DNA of 64,000 nt from an uncultured Eubacteriales bacterium (lineage in GTDB: Bacteria; Bacillota; Clostridia; Christensenellales; UBA1242), in contig CAPERS010000002.1 in the NCBI GenBank assembly GCA_948607205.1, forward strand, positions 68,767 through 132,766. Direction: 5' to 3'. The notes beneath the pieces are model-generated. The model was not told the DNA's origin. It searched no databases and saw nothing but the letters and a program-made list of their open reading frames with translations. This document shows, piece by piece, positions 7,577-60,447 of this stretch. Positions within the stretch are counted from its first letter, which is position 1; every line of letters starts with the position of its first letter. Position numbers and translations under genes: made by a program.

Positions 7577-10500
7577 CTAAACAAGTTCAAACCCAGCAAG
7601 ACCAACTTCAAATACGTCGTTCTGCTGTGGCAAATTTTGTGCAAATTCAAACAATGTTACTTGCATTGGAAGGCCGTTATTCATCTCTTTTTCATATCTG
7701 AAACCTTCATTAAAATCAGTTTCACTACCGTAGGCTTTTTGAGAAATGGTGTTTGCAAGACTCAAAGAAAGATAGCTTGCCACAATTGTTGGCTGTGAGC
7801 CAAGTCCATAAATTGAGTTGAAAGTTGTAGGCAAAATGTTAACTCGTGCAACAGATGAGCAATATTCCACAAGCATTCTAGTGCCAACATTGTTTCTGCC
7901 AACAATTCCACCATAATGAACATTGCTTGTGCTAAGATTTACAATACTATAATCTGCACTTGAAATGATTGAAAGATTGTCAGTCACCTCCCCAACAATT
8001 CCTCCAATTGATTGACTTGCGATTGTTGATTCCAAATTTCCATAATTAATGCAATTTTCAATAGTTCCTTTGCTAGTTGCGCCAGCAATTCCGCCTATTT
8101 GGCTATTTTCTTGCACTCCAATATCTTTGATTGTTCCATAATTTATACAACCAATAATTTTATCATTCTTTTCTTCGCCAAAAAACACGCCACAAATTCC
8201 ACCCTTGGAAGTTCGACCGCTGATTTCTGCACGATTTACACAATTTTCAATAATATTGCCTTCATATGCGTTACCAACAATTCCGCCAGCGTTCCAAACA
8301 GAATAAACATTTCCAGTAACTAAACAATTTCTTACTGTCGTATTTTTCGCAAGACCAATAATTCCACCTGCACCATTGTTTGCGTTTATTGAAACATTGA
8401 GAAGAATTACATCTTGAATTATTGCATTTGAGGTTTTACTGAATAGACCAATATAATCATAAGTAGAATCATAATTGCCTACCACAACTTTATTTAATGT
8501 TTTTAAACTTGAAATTTTTTTATTGTTTCCTTCAAACTTGCCTTTAAAATATGTATTATTTTTTCCAATTGGCATCCAATATCTGCCTGCAAGGTCAATA
8601 TTGTTTGCAAGACGGATTGTTTTGCCTTCAAAATTTTCTCCTTCCCAGTTCATATATGCCACTTTTCCAAGTTCTTCTGCGGTTGAAATGAGATATGCTC
8701 CGCTGGCGTCGGTTGTAAGTTCGACATCTTTGCCGACTGCCGACCATGTCTCTAACCATACTGCATAAAGTGTGACATTTTCTGTGCCTGTTGTTAGGTT
8801 GGATACGCTTGCTCCGTCGCTAAATGTTATTTTTGATGCATCATATTCTGAAATCGGATTTTGTTTTGTTCTGCTCCAACCTAGGAATATATATCCGTTT
8901 CTTGTGAATGAGTTTGCTGTTAAATTTTTGTTATAACCATATGTATGTTTTTGTGCAGACATTGTTCCAGTTCCACCGTTTGCGTCAAACACTATGTTGT
9001 ATTCGTTTGCATCCCAGAGCGCAACGAGTGAGGCGTCACCAACACCGGTTGTGTAAGTTGTTGCTTGACTGCCATTTTCGCTGACATTTTTTCCTGTCGC
9101 ATCATAAGTTCCAACATAGGCAACCTGCCACTTGACAGGATTTTCAGAACTTCCGCTTGGACCTTCAATATAGAAAAAGCCAATAGTGTCAAAATTTCCG
9201 TCTGAGCCACACACCCACTTAAAAACATATGTCTTCCAAGTTCCTGTTCCAATGTTATTTGAAATCCAAGTGTCATGCGTATTATTGCCATGCGCATTAT
9301 ATGCAGGCATCAATTTATATCCTTCTGGAATTTTCGCATGGATAACTGAATAGAAAACTCCGTTTGCTTTTGACTGAAAACGGTTTGAAAAACCATAACC
9401 CCAACCGCAAGTGGCAAGGTTTGTTATTTCAAGAACACGTTTTGAATCTGGCAAATTTAAATCAGAAGGTTTCGAAATTAAATTAAACACAACATTTCCA
9501 TTACCCGAATTGTCATAAATTTCTATATTGTTATCTGACCAATCAAAGAAACCGTCTGTGGTTTTGTCATGTGTTTGACCAAAGGTTGAGAAAGTTCCAT
9601 TTCCATTTTTTGCAACCCAGCCTTTGAAGGTATAACCCGGACGTGTTGGAACGCCTAGTTGAATGTTTGTTCCTTTATCTTGCGTTATTGAGGTTGCCCC
9701 CGAATAAGTTCCACCATTTGCATTCACCGTCACTTTTGACTGAGAAACGAAATACAGATTTACAGTAACACTTTGTGCTGGCACATTAAATTTAATACTG
9801 TCTTGATTTGAATTGCTATTTTCTGATGTTGTGACAGAATAATGCGAATATCGAACACTGCTTGAATATCTAATATTCCACACATCGATAGTTTCACCAT
9901 ATCCCACTTGCTGATAAAAATCAGCTACGTTACTTTTATCAGTCGAAGAGCCAATATTGACATTAAATTGTAGTCCTGAAAGAGAATTATCAGATTGATT
10001 GACTCCGTCAACATAATGATTTACATCAACATAATAGTTGTTTCTTGTCCAACGTGCTGTGATGGTTTCATTGCTTGCTGAGGTTTTATATGTTGAACTA
10101 TAAATTCTAGTTCCACTTGAATTATACCAGCCAGCAAATGTGTAACCTTCTCTTGTTGGTGTTGGGCAATCGTAGTAATTTCCATAAGTCGTGCTATATG
10201 TTGACGAACTACTGCTCCCAATTTTTCCGCCATTGGCATCATATGTCACATTAAATTTTCTTGGCGCAAGAATAATGACATTATAATAGTTTTTTGTTTC
10301 GTTTCCACTAAACTTCAATGTGTGGGTCATGTTCTTTGCAGCCGATTGTGATGAATCTGTTTTCCAAAAACTTGAAACTTGACTTGCAGTAACATTCCCA
10401 ATATCAGTTGACGTTAAAGGATTAATTAAACAATATGAAAGATATGCTTCAAAACCAGCATTTTTACTTGAAATTGAATAATTTACATCATAGTAAGAAT

Positions 10501-10909
10501 GTTTATCGCCACCAATAAAAGTCAATTTCATGTAAACATTACCTTTTATCCAATTTGTTCCATTCCCAGATGCTGACGTTCCCGTGCAACCACCAGCACC
10601 AGTGAAATTGGTAAATGTTATGCTCGTGTTTGCAAGGCTTGTTGAGGTATAGCCATCTTCGCTTACATATTTGCCAATGTTATAATCAACATTTTTAAGT
10701 TGAAAGGTGTCCGTAGATTTTACTACTGGACTTTTCAAACAAACCAATGCAAGACTATAATTATACGTCACATTAGAATAAGCGTCTGCTGTTTGGTCTT
10801 TGTTTGAATTATTTTTTATTGAATCAGAAAAAGTAAAAAACATGCCTGCTGAAAAGCATACCGCAAAGACAAAAGAAACTGTTAACAAAATCTTATGAAT
10901 TCTTTTCAT
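7577..10909 (-). CDS. Large membrane-anchored surface protein with Listeria-Bacteroides (Flg_new-type) repeats and a GLUG-like repeat array
   Basis: 1110 aa. N-terminal signal/anchor helix. Three DANGG...GYTF(A/K)GW or GYIFLGW repeats. C-terminal third has repeated GGI(I/V/A/C)G ... NC(I/V)N units. Paralogue of 54887-58300. Confidence 0.8.
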   Translation of the reverse strand: MKRIHKILLTVSFVFAVCFSAGMFFTFSDSIKNNSNKDQTADAYSNVTYNYSLALVCLKSPVVKSTDTFQLKNVDYNIGKYVSEDGYTSTSLANTSITFTNFTGAGGCTGTSASGNGTNWIKGNVYMKLTFIGGDKHSYYDVNYSISSKNAGFEAYLSYCLINPLTSTDIGNVTASQVSSFWKTDSSQSAAKNMTHTLKFSGNETKNYYNVIILAPRKFNVTYDANGGKIGSSSSSTYSTTYGNYYDCPTPTREGYTFAGWYNSSGTRIYSSTYKTSASNETITARWTRNNYYVDVNHYVDGVNQSDNSLSGLQFNVNIGSSTDKSNVADFYQQVGYGETIDVWNIRYSSSVRYSHYSVTTSENSNSNQDSIKFNVPAQSVTVNLYFVSQSKVTVNANGGTYSGATSITQDKGTNIQLGVPTRPGYTFKGWVAKNGNGTFSTFGQTHDKTTDGFFDWSDNNIEIYDNSGNGNVVFNLISKPSDLNLPDSKRVLEITNLATCGWGYGFSNRFQSKANGVFYSVIHAKIPEGYKLMPAYNAHGNNTHDTWISNNIGTGTWKTYVFKWVCGSDGNFDTIGFFYIEGPSGSSENPVKWQVAYVGTYDATGKNVSENGSQATTYTTGVGDASLVALWDANEYNIVFDANGGTGTMSAQKHTYGYNKNLTANSFTRNGYIFLGWSRTKQNPISEYDASKITFSDGASVSNLTTGTENVTLYAVWLETWSAVGKDVELTTDASGAYLISTAEELGKVAYMNWEGENFEGKTIRLANNIDLAGRYWMPIGKNNTYFKGKFEGNNKKISSLKTLNKVVVGNYDSTYDYIGLFSKTSNAIIQDVILLNVSINANNGAGGIIGLAKNTTVRNCLVTGNVYSVWNAGGIVGNAYEGNIIENCVNRAEISGRTSKGGICGVFFGEEKNDKIIGCINYGTIKDIGVQENSQIGGIAGATSKGTIENCINYGNLESTIASQSIGGIVGEVTDNLSIISSADYSIVNLSTSNVHYGGIVGRNNVGTRMLVEYCSSVARVNILPTTFNSIYGLGSQPTIVASYLSLSLANTISQKAYGSETDFNEGFRYEKEMNNGLPMQVTLFEFAQNLPQQNDVFEVGLAGFELV

Positions 10910-10941
10910 ACTTTATCCTTTTTATATATTTTATTTAAATA

Positions 10942-10973
10942 ATTATACCTCAAAATCCCCCCCCCCATGTCAA
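10942..10973 (-). promoter_or_regulatory. Sigma-A-type promoter with a G10 tract in the spacer (TTGACA-N20-TATAAT)
   Basis: Minus strand reads TTGACA T G10 ATTTTGAGG TATAAT. -35 at 10968-10973, -10 at 10942-10947, homopolymer at 10957-10966. The -10 box lies 32 nt upstream of the ATG. Confidence 0.6.
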
Positions 10974-11164
10974 CAAAATCCGACAGAAAACTCACGCCAT
11001 TTTTGCGTTTCCATTTGGAAAGCGTGGCTATGCTGAGAGTTATTTTTAAATATATATTATTATACTCAAAAATTGAGTAAATACAAAATAAAAAATAAGG
11101 AAAACACATATTTTTCCTGTGTTTTCCTTAAATTAAAGAGATAAAATTCAAATTATATTTTTAT

Positions 11165-48569: not shown

Positions 48570-48597
48570 TTGACAAATCCCCCCCCCGATTTATAAT
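48570..48597 (+). promoter_or_regulatory. Promoter TTGACA-N16-TATAAT with a C9 tract in the spacer
   Basis: -35 at 48570-75, C9 at 48579-87, -10 at 48592-97. AAGGAG RBS and ATG 48629 follow. Confidence 0.6.
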
Positions 48598-48628: not shown

Positions 48629-49723
48629 ATGACAGAGGAAGAAATTAAGGAATTAATCGCCCAACATTATAAAGAAAAAAGTGAATCACGTGTAGCCGAA
48701 GAAATTCCTGCAGAAATATCAGAAAAAATTGCAATAGGTAATACACTTATTTATCCAGAAAGACAACGAGAATGGGAAAAGTATGTTAAAGCAAATAATG
48801 GTAGCGAACTTGATGTTGCTATTCCTGTTATGGAAGCTCTTGAAAATGGTGCCTCTTTTGAAGAAGCCAGCAAAATTATGGAAAATACAAACTCAATAGA
48901 ATCATTTGCTATGGCAATGAGTATTATCGCTAAATTCTCTAAAAAAGGTGTTGAGTTTTTTAGATATGTATCAAAAGATAAAGCACTTGACCCAGAAAAC
49001 GAAAAATTCTTACAAAAAATTTCTCAAGAAAATGAACACATGATAATGAGTAATGCTGAATGTATAAATGATACTGGCTATCTGCTTGCTGGACTTGACC
49101 TTGACAGAATCACTCAACTTCTTGAAGATTTAAAAAATGAGAATAAAAATGTTTATATTAATGGTTACGGAACAAAACTTTACTCTATGCTTGACAATCG
49201 CGATTCATGTTATAAAAAAGTTACAGGTAAAACTTATGAAGAGTTTAAAAATCAAAATTTAGAAAATTCGACGCCAAATAGCATATATGAAAATAAATTG
49301 GGAATAATCAAAAATAATCAAAAATATATGGAAGGTGCTATTGAAAGTATCTACAAAAAAAGCTTGAACTTAATCTATCCACAAAGAAAAGATGAATGGG
49401 AAAAGAAATGTGAAGAAAGTTTTAAATCCCCTACTATTGGTAAAGATTTTAGTATGGCTGTTGCAATAATGGAAGGTATTGAAAGAAATGAACCATTCGA
49501 AGACCTTTATGGTTATCATGTTGAAGAAAAAGAATATTATTTTAACAAGGCATTAAATTTAATAAAAAACTTTGCAAAAAAGGGTGTGGAGTTTTATAAA
49601 TATGCTCAAGCACAAAAAAATAAACAAATTGACGAAGAGGAATTAAAAAGAATTTCACAAGAAAATGAACAGTTCGAAAAACAACTTCGTCTTAATGGTG
49701 AGAAAGACGCGAATATGGAATAA
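48629..49723 (+). CDS. 364-aa cytoplasmic protein made of two homologous halves, function unknown
   Basis: Repeat 1 IYPERQREWEKY...AKFSKKGVEFFRY...LQKISQENEHM and repeat 2 IYPQRKDEWEKK...KNFAKKGVEFYKY...LKRISQENEQF. No signal peptide. Confidence 0.6.
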   Translation: MTEEEIKELIAQHYKEKSESRVAEEIPAEISEKIAIGNTLIYPERQREWEKYVKANNGSELDVAIPVMEALENGASFEEASKIMENTNSIESFAMAMSIIAKFSKKGVEFFRYVSKDKALDPENEKFLQKISQENEHMIMSNAECINDTGYLLAGLDLDRITQLLEDLKNENKNVYINGYGTKLYSMLDNRDSCYKKVTGKTYEEFKNQNLENSTPNSIYENKLGIIKNNQKYMEGAIESIYKKSLNLIYPQRKDEWEKKCEESFKSPTIGKDFSMAVAIMEGIERNEPFEDLYGYHVEEKEYYFNKALNLIKNFAKKGVEFYKYAQAQKNKQIDEEELKRISQENEQFEKQLRLNGEKDANME

Positions 49724-54886: not shown

Positions 54887-57800
54887 TTAAATTATCTCAA
54901 ACCCAGCAAGACCAACCGAAAGCACATCGCTCTGCTGTGGGATTTGACTCGCGTATTCAAACAAACCAACCTGCATTGGAAGACCGTTATTCATCTCTTT
55001 TTCATATCTAAAACCTTCGTTGAAATCTTCGGCATTTCCATAAGCACGCTTTCTCTCTTGATTGCCAACTATCATGCTATAGTAACTTGCCTTGATAAAC
55101 GGAGTTTTACTTCCTCCAAAAATAGCGCCCGAACTGTTTGAAATTTCACCTGTTGACGAGCAATATTCAAGTTCACATTCTGCCCAAATGACACCGACAA
55201 TTCCACTCAGATTTAAACATTCATTATCAACATGGGTGACAAATCCATAGTTTGCCGACGAAATTATTCTTGTTGAGCCATCATTGCAAAGCGCAACGAT
55301 TCCGCCCATTCCACCAACAGTCACTGTTGTTTGAATATTTCCATAATTTATGCAATTTTCAATGTTGTTTCCTGCACTTATTCCAACAATTCCTCCAAAC
55401 CAATAATCATTCCTTCCAAAGTCATTATTTTGAGAAAGAAGTCCAAAATTTATGCAGTTTTTTATTGTGCTATCACTTGCCAAAGCGACAATTCCACCTT
55501 GATACCCGCCAACTATTTCTGCTCTATTCACGCAGTTTTCAACAAGTGAATTTCCAGTTATATGGTCAACAATGCCTGCCGAATGTCTATTAGACTTGAT
55601 TTTTCCTGACAAAACTTGACAATTTCTTATCTGTGATGAGTTGCAAAGTGATGCAATTCCTGCACCTCGGTCACTTGTGTCAATTGATACATTGCTCAAA
55701 ATAACATTCTCAATCTTCGCATTTTCTATTGTGCCAAAAAGTGCTCCCCAAACCGCATATCGCCCAAAGTTTTGTGTTGTAAGGCCATTAATTTTTTTAT
55801 CACATCCATCGAAAGTTCCACTGAATTTTCCGGTTTCGCTAATTGGCATCCAATATTTGCCAGCAAGGTCAATATTGTTTGTCAATTTAACTGTTTCACC
55901 ACTGAAATCATGGCCCTCAAGAGCCATATATGATAACTTTCCAAGTTCTTCTGCACTCGAAATGAGATATGCACCGCTGGCGTCTTGTTTTAAAGTCACA
56001 CTTGCACCAGCTGACGCCCAAGTTTCAAGCCATACTGCATAAAGTGTGACATTTTCTGTGCTTGTTGTTAAATTTGAAACACTTGCTCCGTCGGTATATG
56101 TTATTTTTGACGTGTCATATTCTGAAATTGGATTTTGTTTTGTTCTGCTCCAACCTAGGAATATATATCCGTTTCTTGTGAATGAGTTTGCTGTTAAATT
56201 TTTGTTATAACCATATGTATGTTTTTGTGATGGCATTGTTCCGCTTCCGCCATTGGCGTCAAACACAACGTTATATTCATTCGCATCCCAAAGGGCGACA
56301 AGTTCAACATCAAGATAGCCAAAAGTGTAAGTTGTTTGACCAATTCCACTACCGCTGACATCAAGACCTGTAGCGTCGAAAGTGCCAAGATATGCAACCT
56401 GCCAAACGAGAGGTTTTTCTGCTGTTGGCGCTGGTCCAGTTGAAAGATTAAAGAAACCTATTGTTGAAAAACTGCCAGTTGAACCGCAAACCCATTTATA
56501 TATGTAAGTTTTCCAAGTCCCAGTTCCTTTGTTGTCAGTAAGCCAACTATCATTACATTCATTTCCATGCGCATTCGCTTGGGCGTGAATTGTGTAACCT
56601 TCGGGAATTTTCGCGTGAATAATCTAATAATAAACTCCATTTGGCTTTGAATCAAAACAGTTATGAAATCCGCCATAGCCCGGGCTTGCCTCCCCCACTG
56701 TTGAAATTTCAAGCACTTTCTTAGAGCGTGGCAATTTGAGGTCATCAGGTTTATCAACAATGTTTAGCCTAACATTTCCGTTGTTTGAATTGTTATATAC
56801 ATCTGTGATGTTATATGAATTATCATAAAAGCCGTCAGTCATGACGTAATGGAATTTTCCAAAACTATCCAAACTGCCATCACCATGACTTGAGACCCAG
56901 CCTTTAAAGGTATAACCTGGACGCGTTGGCATAGTATATATTTTTTGTGTTGAGCCATAAATGTGACCAGAAGAAGTTTCAGTTTCCATTCCGTTAACCG
57001 CCCCACCATTTGCGTAACAAGTTATAGAGGCAAACTTTTCAGTCGTGAGATATGGATAGCCTTCGTTGATTTCTGACTTTTGTGAAAAATATGAGTTCCA
57101 CTTAGAGTCTGACTTCCAAGAATATGAAGTTCCGTTCACAACAAACGAACTTCCTGTAAAACAATCCCAATTCCTGAATGCATCAACAATGCCAGAAATA
57201 AAATGGTTGGTTTCACCCAAGCATTCATTGCTATCAATTTTATCGAAGCCCAAGCCTCTATCTGAATAGTTGTAACTATAAGCACTATAATCTGCGTTTT
57301 TATTAATAACATTCGCAACAATTGCTCCAGTGCTTACTGCTGAACTAGAGTTATTTCCAACATTAAAATTGTTTGACACAATCTGTAAATTGCTAACAGA
57401 GCCAAATACACCACCAAGATGAAACAATCTTCCACCAGTAAAATTACCAGCATTATAATTATGATTAAAACTTGTAAGATATGATGGTTCTGATGACGAA
57501 CTGCCTACAACACCCCCAATAATCACCATGTTAAATTCTTCATAATTGAAATTTATATCTCCAAAATTATAACAATATGTAACAAGCATCGTTATCATAG
57601 GTATGATAGGCGAAGGACCACTATAGCCATTTTCACAAGACATAGTTCCTACAATTCCGCCAACCGCAGCAAAAACAGACTGAACTTCTATATCAACAAA
57701 ATTGGCACATCCAGTTATCATGGAATTGATTGCATAACCACAAATTGCTCCTCCAAATTGAGAAGTTGCGCCATCAATAACATTAACATTAATTTTTCCT

Positions 57801-58300
57801 GTTCGTATAACAATTCCGCGAAGGGTTGCGCTGGTTACATAGCCAAACAATCCACAATATGAAATATTTTCTACTACTGGAGCTGAAGTGACTTGATGAT
57901 TTATATAAAGACCTAAAATCGAATAACCATTCCCATTAAATAAACCCTGAAATGAAGAATCTTTAGTTCCAATTGAATCCCAATAATAATTCCCCAAGTC
58001 GATATTTTTGGTTTGTTCAAAATACTTTCCACTTGACCAACCATCAGTTTTTGTTTGCTCTCTCACCCACACAAGATTTTCTGCGCTTGCTATCTTATAA
58101 GGCTCACCACTTGTTCCGTCACCTGTTGGCTTGACCGCGCTTGAACTTGGCCAAAGAGAATTGTTTTTTGGAGTTTCAATTGAAACACCATATGTAACAT
58201 TTTGGTTTATTTCAGAATTAGATGAAATATAAAAAGTAACGCCAAACGCCAGCGAACAAATGCTTATTAAACAAAAAATTGAAGATATTATCTTTTTCAC
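54887..58300 (-). pseudogene. Paralogous surface-protein gene (1137 codons) interrupted by one in-frame TAG at 56624-56626
   Basis: ORFs 56624-58300 and 54887-56266 share one frame, and I found no other stop between them. Translation across the gap (..NGVYY*IIHAKIPEGY..) aligns with ..NGVFYSVIHAKIPEGY.. of 7577-10909. GTG start behind AAGGAG. Confidence 0.75.
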
Positions 58301-58323
58301 GACAAAATTCTCCTTTTTATTTT

Positions 58324-58354
58324 ATTATACCTCAAAATCCCCCCCCCTAGTCAA
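58324..58354 (-). promoter_or_regulatory. Sigma-A-type promoter with a G9 tract in the spacer (TTGACT-N19-TATAAT)
   Basis: Minus strand reads TTGACT A G9 ATTTTGAGG TATAAT. -35 at 58349-54, -10 at 58324-29, tract at 58339-47. Confidence 0.6.
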
Positions 58355-58525
58355 CTAAATCCGACAGGAAAGATACGCTATTTTTGCGTTTCCGTTTAGA
58401 AAGAAGGGCTATGAAGGTTAATTTGGTTTTATATCAATTATTATACTCAAAAATTGCGTTTATACCAAACGAAAAATGCAAATAAAATGGTTTGAAATTT
58501 ATAGTCAGTGTGATATAATAAAAAC

Positions 58526-59185
58526 ATGATAAAGATAAAACAAAACTGGTATCAACTTCTTAAAGAAGAATTTGAAAAGCCATATTTTGCCGCTCTTCAA
58601 GATTTTTTGGCTGAGGAATATTCACGCTATGAAATATATCCCAAAGAAGAGAATATTTTCAATGCACTAAATCATGTCCCATTCGACAAGATAAAGGTTG
58701 TGATTATCGGTCAAGACCCATATCATGAGCCCGGGCAAGCGCAAGGGTTATCTTTCAGTGTGCCAGAGAACATTGAAAATCCACCTTCACTTGTCAATAT
58801 TAAGAAAGAAATTGAAGACGATTTATCAATTAAATGTTTATCCTCTGGCGACCTAACGCGTTGGGCAGACCAAGGTGTTTTGCTTTTAAACACTGTTCTG
58901 ACCGTTCGTCGAGCGCGAGCAAACTCACACAAAGACAAAGGTTGGGAAAAGCTTACTCGAAGAATAATTCAGTTGGTTGGTGAAAGAAAAGAGCCTTGTG
59001 TATTCTTATTATGGGGAAGTTATGCGCAAAGTTTTGCTGAATTGATTGGTTCTCAGCACCTTATTTTGAAAGCGCCACATCCAAGTCCACTTTCTGCCTA
59101 TCGTGGTTTTTTTGGATGCAAACATTTCTCAAAATGCAACGAGTTTCTCATTTCTCACAACCAAACACCTATTGACTGGAAATAA
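58526..59185 (+). CDS. ung: Uracil-DNA glycosylase
   Basis: 219 aa. GQDPYH and HPSPLS motifs. Confidence 0.93.
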   Translation: MIKIKQNWYQLLKEEFEKPYFAALQDFLAEEYSRYEIYPKEENIFNALNHVPFDKIKVVIIGQDPYHEPGQAQGLSFSVPENIENPPSLVNIKKEIEDDLSIKCLSSGDLTRWADQGVLLLNTVLTVRRARANSHKDKGWEKLTRRIIQLVGERKEPCVFLLWGSYAQSFAELIGSQHLILKAPHPSPLSAYRGFFGCKHFSKCNEFLISHNQTPIDWK

Positions 59186-59280: not shown

Positions 59281-60390
59281 TTAGTCGTTTTTCTTTTTAA
59301 GTTCAGCGATATCATTTTTAAGTTTTTCGATATCTGCTTTAAGTTCAGCATTTTGTGCAGATAGCACATCGAACATTTTTTCAAGAAGTGGGAATCTGTC
59401 TTTGTTCTTATCCATAACTTCTTGGCAGTGTTCAACTGAAAGTTTGAGTCCATCGAGAAGGTCAAGGTCTTCTGCGAGTTTCTTTGCTTTTTCTTCGTCG
59501 ATGTCAGCATAGTTATTAACGCCATAGAGAACAACTTTTTGCTTAGCAACGAGTGCTTCTTTTCTGCGAAGTTTCTTTTCGTCGTTTTCGAGAGTTCTCT
59601 TAACTCTGCGAAGTGGCAAAAATTCCTTCTTGCAAGCGCGAAGTTCTTTTTCGTTGGCTTTGAGTCTGTCTTCTTTAACTTCAAGAGCGTTTTCGAGTTC
59701 TTCAAGGCTTACATAGCCGGCTGGAGTTGCGCGAAGAGCTTCAACTTTTTCTCTTTCAGATTGAAGTTCTTGAACAAGCATTGCATTTTTTGCTTTTTCT
59801 TCTTTAAGAGCCTCATCGTCTTGAGAAACTTCTTCCTCTTCTTCGTCTTCGTCGTCAGAGATATCAACAACTTCTTCCTCTTCTTCCTCAGACTCTTCTT
59901 CTTCGAATTCTCCGTCCTCTTCTTCCTCTTCGTCTTCTTCATCTTCTGAAGCGAGTCTTTCAAGGCGAGCCATAAGTTCTCTTCTCTTTTGCTCGATTTC
60001 GGCGTCACGCTCGTTTTCCTCTTCCTCTTCTTCCTCAGACATTTCAGATTCTTCGATTTCCTCGACTTCTTCCTCTTCAACTTCTTCAACGTTTTGAGTT
60101 TCTTCTGCTGACTCTTCTGCTTCTGGGTCATAGTTTTCTACAACTGCGCCACTATAGAGCATTTCAGCGATTTCAGGAACTTTTTCAATTTCCTTTGCGT
60201 CTGCACCCAACTCTTCAAGTTTTTCTTTAACTTTTTCTGTTTCTTCCTCTTTCTTTCTTTCGATTGCTTTGTCGTCTTTCTTTCTGTTGGCAAGGCTCAT
60301 CAAGATGTCGCCCATGAAATAGAGGAGAAATCCACCAGCAACAATGATTCCAAGCACGACTACGATTGTGATAATAACTGAACTTGACAT
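59281..60390 (-). CDS. Membrane-anchored, extremely acidic coiled-coil protein
   Basis: Start at ATG 60390 (AAGGAAGTGAAATTT RBS). One N-terminal TM helix, then about 150 aa of E/D-rich low complexity and a heptad-like C-terminal region. Confidence 0.6.
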   Translation of the reverse strand: MSSSVIITIVVVLGIIVAGGFLLYFMGDILMSLANRKKDDKAIERKKEEETEKVKEKLEELGADAKEIEKVPEIAEMLYSGAVVENYDPEAEESAEETQNVEEVEEEEVEEIEESEMSEEEEEEENERDAEIEQKRRELMARLERLASEDEEDEEEEEDGEFEEEESEEEEEEVVDISDDEDEEEEEVSQDDEALKEEKAKNAMLVQELQSEREKVEALRATPAGYVSLEELENALEVKEDRLKANEKELRACKKEFLPLRRVKRTLENDEKKLRRKEALVAKQKVVLYGVNNYADIDEEKAKKLAEDLDLLDGLKLSVEHCQEVMDKNKDRFPLLEKMFDVLSAQNAELKADIEKLKNDIAELKKKND

Positions 60391-60447
60391 AAATTTCACT
60401 TCCTTTTTTATTTTTTTTGGCTTTTTTGTTTTTAAACTTTAAAAACT

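What the first reader, a model, noticed from the sequence alone, without database searches (positions are those of the whole stretch)
58324..58354. Second copy of the same switch: G9 tract in the spacer of the paralogous surface-gene promoter
The minus strand reads TTGACT-A-GGGGGGGGG-ATTTTGAGG-TATAAT, followed by AAGGAG and GTG 58300. The spacer is 19 nt.

The G-run plus ATTTTGAGGTATAAT module is the same as at 10942-10973, but the tract differs by one G. That is the behaviour expected for independently slipping contingency loci.

Two paralogous surface genes, each behind its own homopolymer switch, would allow combinatorial surface variation.
Basis: partly seen in the sequence, partly recalled or inferred. 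Interest (0 to 1): 0.75.

Follow-up and report, generated by a model that had tools for sequence, protein, structure and literature searches.

The report
Poly-G length switch in surface-gene promoter
A run of nine G's sits between the two recognition boxes of the promoter of a large surface-protein gene in an uncultured gut Clostridia bacterium, and it changes length between almost identical strains. This looks like the classic "slippery-repeat" expression switch known from pathogens, although the gene it controls is cut short by a stop codon in this genome.

Summary
The minus strand 58354-58324 reads TTGACT-A-G9-ATTTTGAGG-TATAAT, a 19-nt spacer, followed by AAGGAG and GTG 58300. The same cassette with G10 (20-nt spacer) precedes the paralogue at 10973-10942.

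The window has only three G/C runs of 6 or more. All three are at least 9 long, and all three lie in a -35/-10 spacer. The third is C9 at 48579-48587.

Near-clonal assemblies differ from the window only at the tracts. One has G10 instead of G9 over 2.5 kb with no other difference. Another has G9 instead of G10 over 13.6 kb with one other mismatch. A diverged orthologue has G8.

The other seven strong promoter matches in the window have 16-18-nt spacers. The best reading is therefore a porA/vlp-type slipped-strand promoter switch that is currently in a weak or OFF register. Expression itself was not tested.

- The switched gene carries an in-frame TAG at codon 559 in this lineage.
- Another lineage has an independent TAA at codon 33, and one lineage is intact.

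This is a new member of a known kind, of moderate interest.

The parts
58349..58354 (-). -35 hexamer TTGACT (5 of 6 matches to TTGACA)
   Evidence: Read directly. It is conserved as GTTGAC in all cassette copies (alignment A2).
58339..58347 (-). Poly-G tract, G9 (C9 on the + strand), the variable part of the promoter spacer
   Evidence: The tract is G10 in L003 and L030, and G9 in L004, L040, L041 and L046. In L003 it is the only difference from the window over 2,494 bp.
58330..58338 (-). Fixed part of the spacer, ATTTTGAGG
   Evidence: It is invariant in all four cassette types.
58324..58329 (-). -10 hexamer TATAAT (6 of 6)
   Evidence: It lies 23 nt upstream of the start codon.
58310..58315 (-). 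Ribosome-binding site AAGGAG
56624..58300 (-). 5' part of the paralogous surface-protein gene. It starts at GTG 58300, runs for 558 codons and ends at an in-frame TAG (56624-56626).
   Evidence: It has an N-terminal hydrophobic signal or anchor and a Flg_new (Listeria-Bacteroides) repeat. The orthologue in L030 has CAG (Gln) at this codon and is intact at 1149 aa.
54887..56623 (-). Remainder of the same reading frame after the TAG, 579 codons. It is 53% identical to the C-terminal 720 aa of copy 1.
   Evidence: It carries Flg_new repeats and weak matches to the Zmp/M26 N-terminal region.
58355..58413 (-). Conserved core of the promoter cassette upstream of the -35. It runs from CATAGCC through CTGTCGGATTTA and includes the palindrome-like site B, ACGCAAAAATAGCGT (58389-58375).
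   Evidence: Alignments A1 and A2 and the repeat scan (I6). The L032 lineage keeps this core although it lacks the sequence further upstream.
58440..58468 (-). Accessory upstream promoter-like site TTGGTA-17-TATAAT. It overlaps palindrome site A (58459-58445).
   Evidence: It is present in copy 1, copy 2 and L028, and absent in the L032 lineage.
10942..10973 (-). Paralogous switch: TTGACA-T-G10-ATTTTGAGG-TATAAT, with a 20-nt spacer
   Evidence: The tract is G9 in GCA_948664835.1, where it is the only indel over 13,618 bp. It is G8 in the orthologue L028.
7577..10909 (-). Paralogue copy 1, an intact 1110-aa gene for a secreted repeat protein
   Evidence: Flg_new, Flg_new_2, GLUG.
48570..48597 (+). 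Third homopolymer promoter: TTGACA-AAT-C9-GATT-TATAAT, with a 16-nt spacer. It lies upstream of a 364-aa gene of unknown function (48629-49723).
   Evidence: The gene has no Pfam, NCBIfam, PADLOC or PHROGs match.

Best explanation
The G9 tract is a hypermutable homopolymer built into the spacer of a sigma-70/SigA-type promoter (TTGACT-N19-TATAAT). That promoter directly drives a large secreted repeat-protein gene.

Proposed mechanism:
- Slipped-strand mispairing during replication adds or removes single G:C pairs.
- Each change alters the distance and the rotational phase between the -35 and -10 hexamers, and so the promoter strength. G7 gives 17 nt, the predicted optimum. G8 gives 18, G9 gives 19 and G10 gives 20.
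- The cassette is about 90 nt long: a conserved upstream core, then -35, the G tract, ATTTTGAGG and -10. It is shared with the paralogue at 10.9 kb and with a gene in another Clostridia species, so each gene carries its own independent rheostat.

In this window's alleles (G9 and G10) both promoters are predicted to be weak or OFF. In addition, the gene behind the G9 tract is truncated by a nonsense codon.

Shown here:
- The anatomy of the promoter.
- The statistical excess of long G/C runs.
- Conservation of the cassette.
- Tract-length polymorphism on near-identical backgrounds.

Inferred, not shown:
- Slippage as the cause of the length changes.
- Dependence of transcription on tract length.
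- Which tract length is the ON state.
For: 1. Anatomy: 5/6 and 6/6 hexamers, an RBS and a start codon 23 nt after the -10.
2. The only three G/C runs of 6 or more in 64 kb are at least 9 long, and all three lie in -35/-10 spacers.
3. The other seven TTGAC[AT]...TATAAT pairs in the window have 16-18 nt spacers. Only the two poly-G promoters have 19 and 20.
4. Polymorphism at copy 2: G9 in the window, L004, L040, L041 and L046, and G10 in L003 and L030. L003 differs from the window by that single G over 2,494 bp.
5. Polymorphism at copy 1: G10 in the window, G9 in GCA_948664835.1 (one indel and one mismatch over 13,618 bp, while 18 A/T runs of 7 or more are unchanged), and G8 in L028.
6. The cassette is 79% identical between the paralogues, while the adjacent 5' coding DNA shows no similarity. 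It recurs with G10 in another species, L013.
7. The L032 lineage lacks the upstream accessory promoter but keeps the core and the tract.
8. The gene shows signs of diversifying or loss-of-function selection typical of contingency genes. It has a hypervariable cassette at aa 100-440 and two independent nonsense mutations in different lineages.
9. Precedent: porA has a poly-G tract between -35 and -10 with graded expression (11G > 10G > 9G; PMC3639595). Each vlp gene has a poly-A tract in its promoter (PMC10502178).
Against: - There are no read-level data, so heterogeneity within a population and reversibility are unproven.
- All length differences are +/-1-2 nt between short-read metagenome assemblies, where homopolymer consensus errors are possible.
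- No allele with the predicted optimal spacer (G7, 17 nt) was seen among about 12 instances. Every allele observed has an 18-20 nt spacer.
- An upstream promoter-like site (58468-58440) could transcribe through the tract and blunt any ON/OFF contrast.
- The downstream gene is a pseudogene-like truncation here, so in this lineage the switch may be vestigial.
- No transcription data were available.
Confidence: 0.7

Rival explanations
1. The tract changes spacing relative to something other than the -35. One version is a Bordetella fim-like arrangement: a regulator binds the conserved upstream core or the palindrome-like sites, and the tract sets the phase between that activator and the -10. The other version places the tract in the 5' leader of a transcript started at the upstream promoter-like site (58468-58440), where it would act on the RNA.
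For: - About 60 nt upstream of the -35 is conserved across paralogues and species. This region includes two 15-bp palindrome-like sites 70 bp apart.
- The upstream TTGGTA-17-TATAAT site is conserved in three cassette types.
- All observed alleles have 18-20 nt spacers, which is odd if -35/-10 spacing alone sets an ON state.
Against: - The -35 and -10 flanking the tract are near-perfect, and the -10 lies only 23 nt from the start codon.
- The L032 lineage lacks the upstream promoter and site A but keeps the core and the tract.
- RNA folds of the would-be leader are no more stable than shuffled controls (z = -0.5 to -1.2).
- There is no Rfam match.
- The third, unrelated tract promoter lacks the conserved core but has the same -35/tract/-10 layout.
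Confidence: 0.15
2. The tract is a fixed sequence feature, and the apparent length differences are homopolymer errors in short-read metagenome assemblies. On this reading there is no phase variation.
For: - Differences are only +/-1-2 nt.
- All six Logan contigs that reach the copy-2 tract stop at it. Two contigs from one sample overlap by only 18 nt across it. Both observations show that sequencing or assembly is troubled at this site.
- The third tract is C9 in all three assemblies that cover it.
Against: - Long G/C runs are found only in promoter spacers, and runs of 6-8 are absent. This argues for selection on a mutable element.
- G8, G9 and G10 are each seen in independent assemblies from different pipelines.
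- Over 13.6 kb the tract is the only indel, while 18 long A/T runs agree.
- Tracts of 9 or more G:C are intrinsically unstable in every organism tested (established knowledge; PMC3639595).
Confidence: 0.1
3. The switch is a relic. In this lineage the copy-2 gene is a decaying pseudogene, and the tract drifts neutrally without any current regulatory role.
For: - There is an in-frame TAG at codon 559 in the window and in ERR4096668.
- Another lineage carries an independent TAA at codon 33.
- The spacer is out of register at 19 nt.
Against: - The rest of the 1137-codon frame is still open, with no frameshifts.
- The promoter cassette is perfectly conserved around the tract across lineages.
- One lineage (L030) is intact, and the intact paralogue copy 1 has the same cassette.
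- This rival concerns the present state in one lineage and does not contradict the mechanism.
Confidence: 0.05

Closest known systems
Neisseria meningitidis porA (also opc and fetA) promoter poly-G/poly-C phase variation
   Same: - A homopolymeric G:C tract of about 9-11 nt lies between the -35 and -10 hexamers of the promoter of a surface-protein gene.
- One-nucleotide changes in length alter the spacer. In porA they give graded expression: 11G is high, 10G is 2-fold lower and 9G is 13-fold lower (PMC3639595).
- Loss-of-function by other routes also occurs in the same gene.
   Different: - The organism is a Gram-positive-type uncultured gut Clostridia commensal, not a proteobacterial pathogen.
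- The proteins are unrelated (a Listeria-Bacteroides-repeat/GLUG protein against a porin).
- Expression as a function of tract length has not been measured here.
- All alleles seen here are longer than the predicted optimum.
Mycoplasma hyorhinis vlp family (poly-A tract in the promoter of every vlp gene)
   Same: - Several paralogous surface-protein genes each carry their own copy of a conserved promoter region containing a homopolymer tract.
- This gives independent ON/OFF switching and combinatorial surface mosaics (PMC10502178; PMC4198240).
   Different: - The tract here is poly-G rather than poly-A.
- Only two paralogues are seen in this window.
- The genes are dispersed, next to groEL and next to udg, rather than clustered.
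- The proteins here are not lipoproteins with tandem-repeat size variation.
Bordetella pertussis fim2/fim3 promoter poly-C tracts
   Same: A G:C homopolymer in a promoter lies next to a conserved upstream element that could bind a regulator (PMC1891110, listed; the details of fim rest on my own knowledge).
   Different: In fim the tract sets the distance between the BvgA activator site and the -10, and there is no good -35. Here a near-consensus -35 directly flanks the tract, and no regulator is known.
Bifidobacterium breve sortase-dependent pilus G-tract switch
   Same: A gut commensal uses replication slippage at a G tract to switch a surface structure ON and OFF (PMC9187656, listed).
   Different: That tract lies inside the coding sequence and acts by frameshift. 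The tract here is in the promoter spacer, and no ORF spans it in copy 2.

Membership tests
SSR-mediated promoter-spacer phase variation (porA/opc/vlp type) | A homopolymer or short repeat long enough to slip (about 8 nt or more) | tested here: met
   The tracts are G9, G10 and C9. Runs of 9 or more are expected 0.017 times per window, and three are observed.
SSR-mediated promoter-spacer phase variation (porA/opc/vlp type) | The repeat lies between recognisable -35 and -10 elements directly upstream of the regulated gene | tested here: met
   The sequence is TTGACT-(A-G9-ATTTTGAGG)-TATAAT, with the start codon 23 nt after the -10. The other seven strong hexamer pairs in the window have 16-18 nt spacers.
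SSR-mediated promoter-spacer phase variation (porA/opc/vlp type) | Tract length differs between otherwise near-identical genomes | tested here: met
   G9 against G10 is the sole difference over 2,494 bp. G10 against G9 is the sole indel over 13,618 bp. An orthologue has G8. The caveat is that these are consensus sequences of short-read assemblies.
SSR-mediated promoter-spacer phase variation (porA/opc/vlp type) | High-frequency, reversible length heterogeneity within a clonal population | not testable with these tools
   No reads are available. Contig breaks at the tract in six Logan assemblies are ambiguous, because they could reflect either heterogeneity or sequencing dropout.
SSR-mediated promoter-spacer phase variation (porA/opc/vlp type) | Transcription or protein level depends on tract length | not testable with these tools
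   This is inferred only from the spacer-length rule and from promoters within the window.
SSR-mediated promoter-spacer phase variation (porA/opc/vlp type) | The regulated gene encodes a surface or host-interaction product | tested here: met
   The protein has an N-terminal hydrophobic signal or anchor, Flg_new/TIGR02543 repeats, GLUG motifs and weak matches to the Zmp N-terminal region. It has a hypervariable cassette at aa 100-440. Surface exposure itself has not been demonstrated.
Invertible promoter (inverton) | Inverted repeats flank the promoter and a site-specific recombinase acts on them | tested here: not met
   Only short, AT-rich, imperfect inverted repeats surround the promoter. 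All alleles are in the same orientation.
Intragenic frameshift SSR switch | The repeat lies inside the reading frame of the switched gene or of a leader ORF | tested here: not met
   The tract lies 39 nt upstream of the GTG. No minus-strand ORF of 20 aa or more spans it in copy 2.

The most novel reading that the evidence does not exclude
The roughly 90-nt cassette may be a portable promoter module that spreads with, or between, surface-protein genes in a clade of uncultured gut Clostridia. It consists of a conserved upstream core with two operator-like palindromes, then -35, the G tract and -10.

On this reading the module combines deterministic control by an unknown regulator with a stochastic poly-G rheostat. 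The population-majority state would be deliberately parked 1-3 nt beyond the optimum, so that a single or double deletion turns individual genes on. Together with the unrelated C9 promoter at 48.6 kb, this would point to a genome-wide, promoter-only contingency system in a Gram-positive-type commensal.
Probability: 0.2. Interest if true: 0.55.

Novelty: new member of a known kind. Interest (0 to 1): 0.4.

Why it matters
Phase variation in gut commensals has been mapped mostly through invertible promoters and methyltransferase switches. My literature searches found no description of promoter-spacer homopolymer switches in uncultured Clostridia.

If confirmed, this locus would matter in three ways:
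- It gives a simple marker, readable from sequence, for stochastic surface variation in an abundant but uncultured lineage.
- It explains why assemblies break at this site.
- It flags a surface protein under strong diversifying and loss-of-function selection. The evidence is a hypervariable cassette and two independent nonsense alleles. The likely pressure is phage or host immunity.

The mechanism itself is textbook.

Tried and rejected
1. A structured RNA or riboswitch in the conserved upstream region. Folds were no better than shuffles, and Rfam found only the tmRNA and two tRNAs.
2. An inverton. No flanking inverted repeats were found, and every allele has the same orientation.
3. The tract lying inside a small ORF as a frameshift switch. 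A 67-aa ORF spans copy 1, but no ORF spans copy 2.
4. TAG read as Gln (recoding). This was rejected because the second lineage's in-frame stop is TAA at a CAA codon, and TAG also ends ordinary ORFs.
5. Two scans of metagenome contigs and one of viral contigs for the cassette found nothing.
6. The genome-contig scan returned mostly ordinary 17-nt-spacer promoters and only one true homologue, L013.
7. PDB, PADLOC and PHROGs searches of the proteins found nothing.
8. Looking for the copy-1 switch in more distant relatives. The whole gene is absent there.
9. A more precise taxonomy. The sources name only 'Clostridia bacterium' MAGs.

Full report
**Observation**

On the minus strand, 58354-58324 reads TTGACT-A-GGGGGGGGG-ATTTTGAGG-TATAAT. 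The spacer is 19 nt. AAGGAG follows at 58315-58310, and GTG at 58300 opens a reading frame that begins MKKIISSIFCLISICSLAFG....

The description is therefore exact.

The feature is not a chance event. The window is 35.9% G+C and contains only three G/C runs of 6 or more, with lengths 10, 9 and 9. A 9-mer run is expected 0.05 times per window in dinucleotide-preserving shuffles. Under a first-order Markov model, runs of 9 or more are expected 0.017 times and three are seen. Runs of 6-8 are expected 2.9 times and none is seen.

The third run is C9 at 48579-48587. It also lies in a promoter spacer: TTGACA-AAT-C9-GATT-TATAAT, 16 nt, followed by AAGGAG and ATG 48629. All three long G/C runs are thus placed between a -35 and a -10.

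**What surrounds it**

The two poly-G promoters belong to a shared cassette. The upstream DNA is 79% identical over 165 bp between the two loci, whereas the adjoining 5' coding DNA shows no detectable similarity. A 48-nt stretch of the cassette occurs exactly twice in the window, with none expected.

The conserved core runs from CATAGCC through GGAAACGCAAAA...CTGTCGGATTT to GTTGAC. The same core with G10 lies in front of a gene in a different species, L013, titled 'uncultured Clostridia bacterium'.

Two features of the cassette may be regulatory:
- It contains two 15-bp palindrome-like sites 70 bp apart. In copy 2 these are 58459-58445 and 58389-58375. The stricter motif ACNCA-W5-TGNGT occurs only at the two upstream sites in the whole window.
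- A second promoter-like site, TTGGTA-17-TATAAT, lies at 58468-58440. One lineage (L032) lacks this upstream part and still keeps the core, the -35, the tract and the -10. The proximal poly-G promoter is therefore the constant element.

Several alternatives were checked and did not hold:
- RNA folds of the region are no more stable than shuffled controls.
- Rfam finds only the tmRNA and two tRNAs in the window.
- No convincing inverted repeats flank the promoter.
- No minus-strand ORF spans the tract in copy 2.

**The genes**

Copy 1 (7577-10909) is an intact 1110-aa protein with Listeria-Bacteroides (Flg_new) repeats and GLUG motifs.

Copy 2 is one 1137-codon frame (58300-54887) that is 53% identical to copy 1 over the C-terminal 720 residues. 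It is interrupted by an in-frame TAG at codon 559 (56624-56626). The same TAG is present in an independent sample, ERR4096668.

Other lineages differ at this gene:
- The orthologue in a JGI metagenome contig (L030) has Gln at that codon and is intact at 1149 aa.
- A third lineage (L040, L041, L046) carries a different nonsense mutation, CAA to TAA at codon 33.

Because the two stops are different codons, and TAG also ends ordinary ORFs, this is not recoding.

Residues about 100-440 are only 30-50% identical between lineages, while the flanks are 90-100% identical. That is an allelic hypervariable cassette.

Copy 1 with its cassette is absent between groEL and the adh_short gene in relatives whose GroEL is 88% and 82% identical. 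It is therefore a lineage-specific acquisition.

The named relatives of GroEL (about 80% identity) are all 'Clostridia bacterium' MAGs.

**Tract-length polymorphism**

I used exact-protein look-ups of neighbouring genes to find other assemblies that cover each locus.

| Locus | Tract length | Assemblies |
|---|---|---|
| Copy 2 | G9 | window, L004 (GCA_948877975.1), L040, L041, L046 |
| Copy 2 | G10 | L003 (GCA_948586605.1), L030 |
| Copy 1 | G10 | window |
| Copy 1 | G9 | GCA_948664835.1 |
| Copy 1 | G8 | diverged orthologue L028 (protein 72% identical) |
| Third tract | C9 | all three assemblies covering it |

The backgrounds are nearly clonal:
- L003 differs from the window by that single G over 2,494 bp, with no mismatches.
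- GCA_948664835.1 differs by that single G and one mismatch over 13,618 bp. That stretch holds 18 A/T runs of 7 or more, none of which changed.

All six Logan contigs that reach the copy-2 tract end at it. Two contigs from one sample overlap by only 18 nt across it. This could reflect heterogeneity or poor sequencing through poly-G, and I cannot tell which.

**Mechanism**

The other seven TTGAC[AT]...TATAAT pairs in the window have spacers of 16-18 nt. Only the two poly-G promoters have 19 and 20.

The best-supported reading is a slipped-strand promoter-spacer switch. Tract length sets the -35/-10 spacing: G7 gives 17, G8 gives 18, G9 gives 19 and G10 gives 20. Spacing in turn sets transcription. 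On this reading the alleles in this window are in a weak or OFF register.

This is inference from the spacer rule and from well-studied precedents:
- porA has a poly-G tract between -35 and -10, with 11G high, 10G 2-fold lower and 9G 13-fold lower (PMC3639595).
- In the vlp family, every paralogue has a poly-A tract in its own promoter (PMC10502178).

Three observations weaken a simple ON/OFF picture:
- No allele with the predicted optimum (G7) was seen.
- The conserved upstream core could bind a regulator, so a fim-like phasing mechanism is possible.
- The accessory upstream promoter could read through the tract.

**Verdict**

Tract variability between near-clonal genomes was found at both loci, but expression switching and within-population heterogeneity are untested.

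The feature is a new member of a well-known kind. It occurs in an uncultured gut Clostridia lineage for which my literature searches found no prior description. Interest is moderate.

Noticed in passing
window 48570-48597 (+), gene 48629-49723: A third homopolymer promoter, TTGACA-AAT-C9-GATT-TATAAT, has a 16-nt spacer, so one more C would give 17. It lies in front of a 364-aa acidic, internally duplicated protein with no match in Pfam, NCBIfam, PADLOC or PHROGs. The gene sits next to a PemK toxin pair. The tract is C9 in all three assemblies that cover it.
   Followed up: partly
window 56624-56626 (-); L040 codon 33: Copy 2 has an in-frame TAG at codon 559, where the intact orthologue in L030 has Gln. 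Another lineage (L040, L041, L046) has an independent CAA-to-TAA change at codon 33. These are two separate loss-of-function hits in the same switched gene.
   Followed up: yes
window about 57000-58000 (-), copy-2 residues about 100-440: This is an allelic hypervariable cassette. It is 30-50% identical in amino acids between the window lineage and the L030/L040 lineages, while both flanks are 90-100% identical. That pattern suggests recombinational replacement of an exposed domain.
   Followed up: partly
window 7577-11100; L065, L069: Copy 1 and its promoter cassette are missing between groEL and the adh_short gene in relatives whose GroEL is 88% and 82% identical. The gene and its switch are therefore a lineage-specific insertion.
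   Followed up: partly
window 58445-58459 and 58375-58389; 11064-11078 and 10994-11008: Two operator-like 15-bp palindromes lie 70 bp apart in each cassette. The upstream motif ACNCA-W5-TGNGT occurs only at these two loci in the window. They may bind an unknown regulator.
   Followed up: partly
window 58492-58526 (+): The uracil-DNA glycosylase gene has a strong promoter match (TTGAAA-16-TATAAT with an upstream TG). Its -10 ends 7 nt before the ATG, which suggests a leaderless or nearly leaderless mRNA.
   Followed up: no
window 59281-60399 (-): A 372-aa glutamate-rich ORF shows in-frame indels of 3 and 12 nt in its GAA/GAG repeats between strains.
   Followed up: no
L001, L002/L033, L032, L042, L047, L048 (contig ends); L026 (contig start): Every Logan contig that reaches the copy-2 tract ends exactly at G9. 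Within one sample the two neighbouring contigs overlap by only 18 nt. The cause could be tract heterogeneity or sequencing dropout through poly-G.
   Followed up: partly
L061 1-26 (GCA_948586605.1, contig CAPBQR010000140.1): The contig begins with an Illumina adapter sequence, AGTTCAGACGTGTGCTCTTCCGATCT. This is a contaminant in a public MAG.
   Followed up: no
window 11096-11130 (-): A perfect 13-bp stem followed by a T-run directly after groEL looks like its intrinsic terminator. The copy-1 cassette starts immediately downstream of it.
   Followed up: no
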